Shown here piece by piece: positions 48,102 through 48,131 of a DNA stretch of 64,000 nt. The notes under the pieces were generated by a model. That model had not been told where the DNA came from, made no database searches, and saw nothing but the letters and a program-made list of their open reading frames with translations. Both the position numbers and the translations under genes were made by a program. The stretch comes from Escherichia coli (lineage in GTDB: Bacteria; Pseudomonadota; Gammaproteobacteria; Enterobacterales; Enterobacteriaceae): the NCBI RefSeq assembly GCF_016026235.1, contig NZ_CP065613.1; one strand, written 5' to 3'. Position 1 is the first letter of the stretch. Every line of letters starts with the position of its first letter.

Positions 48102-48131
48102 TTCTGCATGGTTATGCATAACCATGCAGAA
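48102..48131 (-). terminator. Perfect 30-bp palindrome (ttctgcatggttatgcataaccatgcagaa) downstream of rhtA; probable intrinsic terminator
   Basis: Perfect palindrome read directly, 9 nt after the rhtA stop, T-rich on the minus-strand 3' side. Confidence 0.6.

What the first reader, a model, noticed from the sequence alone, without database searches (positions are those of the whole stretch)
48102..48131. Perfect 30-bp palindrome between rhtA and dps
ttctgcatggttatgcataaccatgcagaa is an exact 30-bp palindrome 9 nt after the rhtA stop. It most likely acts as the rhtA intrinsic terminator and insulates the dps promoter. Its perfection is unusual for a terminator and could mark a protein-binding site or recombination hotspot.
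Basis: seen in the sequence. Interest (0 to 1): 0.3.

Follow-up and report, generated by a model that had tools for sequence, protein, structure and literature searches.

The report
Hairpin ending the rhtA messenger RNA
The perfect 30-bp palindrome is real, but it is an ordinary and already recorded feature: the stem-loop that marks and protects the 3' end of the rhtA messenger RNA just upstream of the dps gene in E. coli.

Summary
Window 48102-48131 is an exact 30-bp palindrome, 8 nt after the rhtA stop codon, far beyond chance and present in about 5420 of 5426 complete E. coli genomes. In 80 Enterobacteriaceae loci a hairpin sits 3-16 nt after the rhtA stop. Its sequence drifts but its pairing is kept: 11 of 12 pairs show double changes and 92.5% of cells pair, against 31-44% in slid controls. 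Loop length varies, and non-Watson-Crick positions are mostly G·U on the rhtA sense strand (18 versus 4). Published K-12 data place a primary rhtA RNA 3' end 7 nt past the stem, and full-length transcript reads show rhtA as monocistronic. The label "intrinsic terminator" is not established. The U-tract is marginal in E. coli (UUUCUCGC) and absent in other genera, which fits the known class of U-tract-less protective stem-loops on Rho-terminated transcripts, or a weak hybrid terminator. Compensatory change and variable spacing argue against a sequence-specific protein site. The inverted repeat has already been noted in papers on Dps binding. Low interest; already known.

The parts
48102..48131 (-). 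Perfect 30-bp palindrome. As RNA on the rhtA sense (minus) strand it forms a 13-bp stem with a 4-nt loop (UGCA).
   Evidence: Sequence check. RNA fold gives about -19 kcal/mol for the hairpin, z = -4.4 for the 101-nt context. The helix is conserved with covariation in 55 sequences.
48140..49027 (-). rhtA coding sequence (threonine/homoserine exporter); stop codon at 48140-48142.
   Evidence: ORF list. RefSeq annotation of identical or near-identical E. coli records.
48132..48139 (-). 8-nt spacer between the rhtA stop codon and the hairpin.
   Evidence: Read directly from the sequence. The equivalent spacer is 3-16 nt (median 8) in 59 related loci.
48093..48101 (-). Tail after the hairpin (UUUCUCGCU). 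The mapped rhtA mRNA 3' end falls here: K-12 peak 849163-849170, dominant position 849165, which is window 48095.
   Evidence: TRS/RNAtag-seq Supplementary Data 3 of PMC10687069. Coordinates were transferred with the constant offset 801070.
48022..48101 (-). C-rich, G-poor, weakly structured stretch downstream of the hairpin (C 19, G 10 in 80 nt; C 12, G 3 in the first 40 nt). It is a candidate Rho-loading region.
   Evidence: Composition counts. C exceeds G in 57 of 59 related loci, but the bias extends through the whole spacer, so it is not specific to this stretch.
47338..47841 (-). dps coding sequence, the downstream gene. Its transcription start (K-12 848950, window about 47880) lies 222-251 nt beyond the palindrome.
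   Evidence: ORF list and annotation. TSS from SMRT-Cappable-seq Supplementary Data 2 of PMC6131387.

Best explanation
The palindrome is the DNA template of the 3'-terminal stem-loop of the rhtA mRNA. When rhtA is transcribed (minus strand), the 30 nt fold into a 13-15 bp hairpin 8 nt after the stop codon. Mature rhtA transcripts end about 7 nt past this hairpin, so rhtA is a monocistronic unit and does not read into dps. The conserved function is a structured RNA 3' end that defines the end of the message and blocks 3'-to-5' exonucleases (PNPase, RNase II). Polymerase release is probably not achieved by the hairpin alone. The U-tract is marginal in E. coli and missing in other genera, so I infer either Rho-dependent termination in the C-rich, G-poor spacer downstream, followed by trimming back to the hairpin, or a weak intrinsic terminator backed up by Rho. 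Shown: the palindrome, selection on pairing, the sense-strand bias, the mapped 3' end and the monocistronic unit. Inferred: exonuclease protection and the involvement of Rho.
For: There are four lines of evidence.

1. The structure is selected, not the sequence. In 55 distinct sequences from Escherichia, Salmonella, Citrobacter, Enterobacter, Kosakonia, Buttiauxella, Cedecea, Raoultella and others, a 12-pair helix is paired in 92.5% of cells, against 31-44% with slid partners. Eleven of 12 pairs show changes on both sides, and the covariation score is 0.518 against 0.06-0.16. RNAalifold independently finds the same helix. Examples are E. albertii TTTTGCATG..CATGCAAAA and Kosakonia TTCAGCATG..CATGCTGAA.

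2. The hairpin tracks the rhtA stop codon. It sits 3-16 nt after the stop even where the spacer to dps shrinks to 216-249 nt or grows to 405 nt.

3. The signal is at RNA level and on the sense strand. In a strand-symmetric scan, 18 of 26 non-Watson-Crick oppositions in the stems are G:T (G·U in rhtA-sense RNA) against 4 A:C. The hairpin span folds more stably as sense RNA in 44 cases against 11.

4. Experiments support it. A primary rhtA 3' terminus at K-12 849165 lies 7 nt after the stem. rhtA and dps are separate monocistronic operons in full-length reads.

Three further results bear on the sub-mechanism. The terminator scan does not call the site. A d'Aubenton-Carafa-type score, using a formula recalled from memory, is about -2 for E. 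coli and above 0 in only 1 of 59 homologues. [quoted passage not shown]
Against: No bicyclomycin, rho, pnp or rnb data for this locus could be found, so Rho dependence and exonuclease protection are inferences. The 3' end lies 7 nt after the stem and E. coli has three U residues directly after the stem; both are equally what a working intrinsic terminator would give. The C-over-G bias runs through the entire spacer, not just next to the hairpin. The fixed-window strand comparison was not significant (43 versus 31, p = 0.18). The G:T versus A:C count is not corrected for phylogeny; roughly 12 versus 4 events are independent. The 3' end was found in one held dataset (LB RNAtag-seq, significant in 2 of 3 libraries). 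No rhtA entry appeared in the held text of two other Term-seq supplements. Pseudocitrobacter and Trabulsiella lack the hairpin, so it is dispensable.
Confidence: 0.55

Rival explanations
1. Self-sufficient intrinsic (Rho-independent) terminator of rhtA. The hairpin plus the following UUUCU releases RNA polymerase without Rho.
For: The hairpin is stable. Three U residues follow the stem directly. The mapped 3' end lies 7 nt after the stem, which is the canonical distance. rhtA is monocistronic. The recalled d-score for E. coli is near the decision boundary at about -2.3.
Against: The consensus scan does not call it, since the tail has only 4 U in 8. The stem base is made of A-U pairs and the stem is only 40% GC. 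The homologous hairpins in other genera are followed by AAUAUC, CGCC, AGAGG and similar tails, and 58 of 59 score below 0. The neighbouring dps terminator shows what a canonical one looks like in these genomes: a GC-rich stem followed by UUUU.
Confidence: 0.3
2. A DNA-level structural element of the dps regulatory region. The inverted repeat would extrude or bend and serve as a preferred contact for the nucleoid protein Dps (or HU-like proteins), tuning the topology of the dps promoter.
For: Antipov et al. 2017 state that one of two primary Dps DNase I footprint regions (216-281 bp upstream of Pdps) has this 30-bp inverted repeat at its centre, and that Dps ChIP-seq sites are enriched in inverted repeats. 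Melekhov et al. 2015 report Dps affinity for branched DNA. The DNA hairpin is predicted to be stable (-13 kcal/mol). The palindrome is perfect throughout Escherichia.
Against: The footprint was weak: only a few protected bands at 5-fold excess, and the distal fragment bound less well than the promoter fragment. The G:T excess over A:C in the stems (18 versus 4) is not expected for a double-stranded or cruciform DNA function. The hairpin follows the rhtA stop, not dps, when the spacer length changes. It is lost without replacement in genera that keep dps and its core promoter. Cruciform extrusion of 30 bp in vivo is unproven.
Confidence: 0.07
3. Operator for an unidentified dimeric transcription factor regulating dps or rhtA.
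For: Perfect dyad symmetry. The outer arms (TTCTGCATG) are conserved from Escherichia to Enterobacter.
Against: The half-sites change in a compensatory way rather than being conserved. The spacing between conserved arms varies by several nt. The position (-222 to -251 from the dps TSS, and after the rhtA stop) is atypical for an operator. There is no second copy in the window or in E. coli genomes by BLAST. No paper in the library contains the core 20-mer. Comparable sequence conservation is seen in the dps terminator stem.
Confidence: 0.03
4. Recombination or instability hotspot, or the remnant of a mobile element.
For: Two independent IS1 insertions lie in the same spacer, one of them 5 bp from the palindrome.
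Against: The element is single-copy and at a fixed position. The 80-bp region is at least 95% identical in 5420 of 5426 genomes and the inner 28 bp is unchanged in all variants inspected. It is orthologous across genera. IS1 is known to favour AT-rich spacers (general knowledge).
Confidence: 0.02

Closest known systems
3'-terminal protective stem-loops of Rho-dependent transcripts (Dar and Sorek 2018, NAR; hypothesis of Peters et al.)
   Same: A stable stem-loop with folding energy like that of terminators, no or weak U-tract, the steady-state RNA 3' end a few nt downstream, and C exceeding G downstream.
   Different: Rho dependence and PNPase/RNase II trimming have not been shown for rhtA. 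The E. coli copy has three U residues after the stem, so it may be a hybrid.
Canonical intrinsic terminator (for example the adjacent dps terminator)
   Same: A hairpin shortly after the stop codon, a 3' end 7 nt after the stem, and a monocistronic unit.
   Different: The stem base is AU-rich, the stem is 40% GC, only 4 of 8 tail positions are U in E. coli, and no U-tract exists in other genera. The consensus scan does not call it.
REP/BIME extragenic palindromes
   Same: An extragenic palindrome that can stabilise upstream mRNA.
   Different: It is single-copy, has no REP consensus, and has one orthologous position across genera.
Inverted repeats proposed as Dps contact sites (Melekhov 2015; Antipov 2017)
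   Same: This very 30-bp repeat is cited there as the centre of a Dps footprint region upstream of dps.
   Different: The comparative evidence here points to selection on an RNA hairpin of rhtA rather than on a DNA-protein contact.

Membership tests
Intrinsic (Rho-independent) terminator | Stable RNA stem-loop just upstream of the RNA 3' end | tested here: met
   13-bp stem with a 4-nt loop, about -19 kcal/mol. Published 3' end lies 7 nt after the stem.
Intrinsic (Rho-independent) terminator | U-rich tract of 7-8 nt immediately 3' of the stem | tested here: not met
   The E. coli tail is UUUCUCGC (4 of 8 U), and the scan that requires at least 5 of 8 does not call it. Homologues lack any U-tract, and 58 of 59 have a d-score below 0. 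E. coli itself is borderline.
Intrinsic (Rho-independent) terminator | GC-rich stem, especially at its base | tested here: not met
   12 of 30 bases are G or C. The two or three base pairs at the stem base are U-A or A-U.
Intrinsic (Rho-independent) terminator | Termination in vitro without Rho | not testable with these tools
   Needs single-round in vitro transcription.
Protective 3' stem-loop of a Rho-dependent transcript | Precise steady-state 3' end directly downstream of a stable stem-loop that lacks a U-rich tail | tested here: met
   3' end; tails. The E. coli tail is only partly U-rich.
Protective 3' stem-loop of a Rho-dependent transcript | C-over-G bias (rut-like) downstream | tested here: inconclusive
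   C 19.8 against G 9.4 per 80 nt, with C exceeding G in 57 of 59 loci. However, the bias spans the whole spacer.
Protective 3' stem-loop of a Rho-dependent transcript | Read-through on Rho inhibition; longer 3' tails in pnp or rnb mutants | not testable with these tools
   No held dataset lists rhtA.
REP/BIME repeat | Many dispersed copies per genome | tested here: not met
   One locus per genome: the two BLAST places are the two strands of the same palindrome. There is no second half-site in the window.
Palindromic operator of a dimeric transcription factor | Half-site sequence and spacing conserved among orthologous sites | tested here: not met
   Compensatory double changes occur in 11 of 12 pairs, and the centre varies in both length and sequence.
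Dps-preferred inverted repeat / cruciform site | Specific Dps occupancy at the repeat | not testable with these tools
   Only a literature report of a weak in vitro footprint.
Dps-preferred inverted repeat / cruciform site | Strand-symmetric (DNA-level) conservation of pairing | tested here: not met
   G:T 18 against A:C 4 among stem mismatches. The count is not corrected for phylogeny.

The most novel reading that the evidence does not exclude
In Escherichia only, the loop of the ancestral rhtA 3' hairpin has become self-complementary. This gives a perfect 30-34 bp DNA palindrome that is kept perfect even through a compensatory change in E. albertii. It might reflect a second, DNA-level role: a cruciform-prone or Dps-docking site about 235 bp upstream of the dps start that couples supercoiling or Dps level to dps promoter activity, as the Ozoline group speculated.
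Probability: 0.06. Interest if true: 0.4.

Novelty: already known. Interest (0 to 1): 0.12.

Why it matters
It matters little beyond annotation. The analysis gives a clean explanation for a striking-looking sequence and shows that rhtA and dps are separate transcription units. It also provides a well-documented example of a conserved, covarying 3'-end hairpin without a U-tract, which is of minor use for terminator predictors. Finally, it cautions against reading the repeat as a Dps- or regulator-specific DNA site when interpreting the dps upstream region.

Tried and rejected
- **Rfam.** A search of 47000-49400 at permissive E-value found nothing at the palindrome, only sub-threshold hits on the dps terminator.
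- **Promoter and terminator scan.** No call at the palindrome and no promoter-like site in the spacer.
- **Literature, direct terms.** Searching for rhtA, terminator and dps together gave 0 papers. The core 20-mer appears in 0 papers. Searching for rhtA with Rho or bicyclomycin terms gave nothing on this locus.
- **Supplements.** Dar and Sorek 2018 supplements are not held. Adams 2021 and TERMITe supplements have no rhtA entry in the held text. Peters 2012 is not held.
- **Fixed-window strand comparison.** Comparing folding energy of the two strands over a fixed 60-nt window was not significant. Base composition favours the antisense strand in control windows, so I replaced this with a strand-symmetric mismatch count.
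- **Transcription-factor matching.** I compared the half-sites from memory against known E. coli motifs (Zur, NikR, PdhR/GntR type, LexA, NsrR). None fits in spacing or sequence, so this was not pursued.
- **rhtA orthologues not next to dps.** I considered a protein search to find them but did not run it, because the cost outweighed the value for a low-interest finding.

Full report
**Observation.** Window 48102-48131 reads TTCTGCATGGTTATGCATAACCATGCAGAA and is an exact 30-bp palindrome. It lies on the 3' side of rhtA (minus strand, 48140-49027; stop codon 48140-42) with 8 intervening nt. It is 261 nt upstream of the dps start codon (dps 47338-47841, minus strand). The next longest perfect zero-spacer palindrome in the 64 kb has 7-nt arms, and shuffled sequences reach 6-11 nt against 15 here. 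Chance is therefore excluded. The window is E. coli, with 100% matches to many strains. In K-12 MG1655 the palindrome is at 849172-849201, between dps (848408-848911) and rhtA (849210-850097).

**Population data.** The 80-bp region around the palindrome is present at 95% identity or more in 5420 of 5426 complete E. coli genomes, and is identical in 4051. In the most divergent variants inspected, the only change inside the palindrome is T to A at 48102, its outermost pair, in B2-like strains. The inner 28 bp is untouched. It is single-copy: the two BLAST places per genome are the two strands of the same site.

**Comparative anatomy.** A scan of species-representative genomes with Dps returned 80 loci covering Escherichia, Salmonella, Citrobacter, Enterobacter, Klebsiella, Raoultella, Kosakonia, Buttiauxella, Cedecea, Leclercia, Lelliottia and others. 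rhtA lies immediately upstream of dps in every locus long enough to tell.
- In 59 distinct loci a strong hairpin sits 3-16 nt (median 8) after the rhtA stop.
- Its sequence drifts while pairing is kept. Examples are E. albertii TTTTGCATGG...CCATGCAAAA, Kosakonia TTCAGCATG...CATGCTGAA and TTTGGCATG...CATGCCAAA, Buttiauxella TATTTACCGTGG...CCACGGTAAATA, Cedecea CATTTAATGCGG...CCGCATTAAATG and Raoultella GTTCTGCACG...CGTGCAGAAC.
- On a MAFFT alignment of 55 distinct sequences, a 12-pair helix is paired in 92.5% of cells, against 31-44% when partners are slid by 1-3 columns. Eleven of 12 pairs show changes on both sides. The covariation score is 0.518 against 0.06-0.16 (slid) and 0.22 (shuffled). 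RNAalifold independently predicts the same helix, with 9 of 10 pairs compensatory.
- The apical part varies freely in sequence and length (loops of 3-9 nt). Only Escherichia species have a self-complementary centre, and hence a perfect palindrome: 30 bp in most E. coli, 32 bp in E. albertii and 34 bp in one divergent E. coli.
- Given a perfect stem and a 4-nt loop, a self-complementary loop has a 1 in 16 chance, so the "perfection" needs no special explanation.

**Which gene and which strand.**
- The hairpin keeps its distance from the rhtA stop when the spacer to dps shortens (216-249 nt in Klebsiella and Raoultella) or lengthens (405 nt in one Buttiauxella).
- In a strand-symmetric search for the dyad, the non-Watson-Crick oppositions inside stems are G:T or T:G in 18 cases, A:C or C:A in 4, and other in 4 (binomial p = 0.004). 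G:T reads as G·U on the rhtA-sense RNA. The count is not corrected for phylogeny; by my estimate roughly 12 versus 4 events are independent.
- Folding the hairpin span gives a more stable sense RNA in 44 cases against 11. That span was chosen from the sense fold, and a fixed 60-nt window test was not significant. I therefore treat the strand evidence as suggestive, not conclusive.

**Experimental evidence from the literature.**
- The TRS study (PMC10687069, Supplementary Data 3; by its position in the file, the LB RNAtag-seq sheet) lists a "Primary" 3' terminus for rhtA on the minus strand. The peak is 849163-849170 and the dominant position is 849165, which is 7 nt past the hairpin. Exactly this stem-loop is drawn (-18.7 kcal/mol) with a maximum U-run of 4. 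Adjusted p-values in the three libraries are 0, 0.19 and 0.003.
- SMRT-Cappable-seq full-length reads (PMC6131387, Supplementary Data 2) list rhtA (TSS 850130) and dps (TSS 848950) as monocistronic operons. No b0813|b0812 read-through variant appears, although the method reports many such variants elsewhere.
- So transcripts do end here and dps is insulated.

**Intrinsic or not.**
- The consensus scan does not call the site. The tail is UUUCUCGC, the stem is 40% GC, and its base is made of A-U pairs.
- A d'Aubenton-Carafa-type score, using a formula recalled from memory, is about -2 for E. coli (borderline). It is below 0 for 58 of 59 homologues, whose tails (AAUAUC..., CGCC..., AGAGG...) are not U-rich.
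- The neighbouring dps terminator is canonical by contrast, with a GC-rich stem followed by UUUU. Its stem is also conserved across genera, which shows that sequence conservation of the rhtA arms is not exceptional.
- The sense strand downstream of the hairpin is C-rich and G-poor: 19.8 C against 9.4 G per 80 nt, with C exceeding G in 57 of 59 loci. The bias spans the whole spacer, while rhtA coding sequence has roughly equal C and G.
- These features match the class described by Dar and Sorek 2018: Rho-dependent transcripts whose steady-state 3' ends lie just after stable stem-loops without U-tracts, which protect against PNPase and RNase II.
- I could find no Rho-inhibition or exonuclease-mutant data for rhtA. 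The split between "protective hairpin plus Rho, or hybrid" (0.55) and "self-sufficient intrinsic terminator" (0.30) is therefore a judgement.

**Protein-binding and DNA-level readings.**
- The repeat is already in the literature. Antipov et al. [quoted passage not shown]
- The underlying footprint (Melekhov et al. 2015) was weak, and the distal fragment bound Dps less well than the promoter fragment.
- The DNA hairpin is predicted to be stable (-13 kcal/mol).
- Against a DNA-level role as the main function: compensatory evolution, variable spacing, G·U strand asymmetry, tracking of the rhtA stop, and loss of the hairpin in Pseudocitrobacter and Trabulsiella, which keep dps and its proximal promoter.
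- A specific transcription-factor operator is also unlikely. There is no second copy, no mention in the literature, and the location is atypical.
- The population data give no support for a recombination hotspot. Two IS1 insertions in the spacer are noted but are readily explained by the AT-rich target.

**Verdict.** The element is a member of a known kind and has been recorded before, both as an inverted repeat and as a mapped 3' terminus. Interest is low.

Noticed in passing
window 48029-48036 and 48097; loci L007 (1696-2463) and L004: Two E. coli strains carry independent IS1 insertions in the rhtA-dps spacer. In HS30-1 a 768-bp IS1X2 has an 8-bp duplication (GGAATTTT). In tcmA_3 the IS1 end abuts a point 5 bp from the palindrome and replaces the dps-proximal spacer in the stretch fetched. 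Either could alter dps regulation.
   Followed up: partly
window 48102: B2-like strains (for example D8, A37, CUVET20-PYO1, DS566) have T to A at the outermost palindrome position, giving a 28-bp palindrome. About a quarter of genomes differ from the window somewhere in the 80 bp around the palindrome, but never in the inner 28 bp among those inspected.
   Followed up: partly
L020, L022 (Pseudocitrobacter); L052, L066, L075 (Trabulsiella): The rhtA-dps spacer is only 115-130 nt and lacks the hairpin, so the rhtA stop lies about 60 nt from the dps -10 region. rhtA transcription may read into dps in these genera.
   Followed up: no
L012 (Marinobacter sp. BW6, 703-bp contig); L082 (Streptomyces polyasparticus, 573-bp contig): Tiny contigs in non-enterobacterial assemblies encode Dps that is 97% and 92% identical to the E. 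coli protein. This is most likely enterobacterial contamination of those assemblies.
   Followed up: no
window 47265-47347 (minus strand): The canonical dps intrinsic terminator gives sub-threshold Rfam hits (ctRNA_p42d at 26.9 bits, STnc70, isrD). The TRS data list the dps 3' terminus at K-12 848334. In many other genera the terminator is followed by a conserved second hairpin (TGCAC...GTGCA).
   Followed up: partly
L009 (GTDB E. coli representative SCPM-O-B-8794) and L008 (E. albertii): The palindrome is longer in these genomes (34 bp and 32 bp, both perfect). E. albertii keeps it perfect through a compensatory C:G to T:A change.
   Followed up: yes
window about 49130-49330; K-12 850332-850397: K-12 annotation places a 21-codon small gene, yliM, between rhtA and ompX. 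I did not examine it in the window.
   Followed up: no
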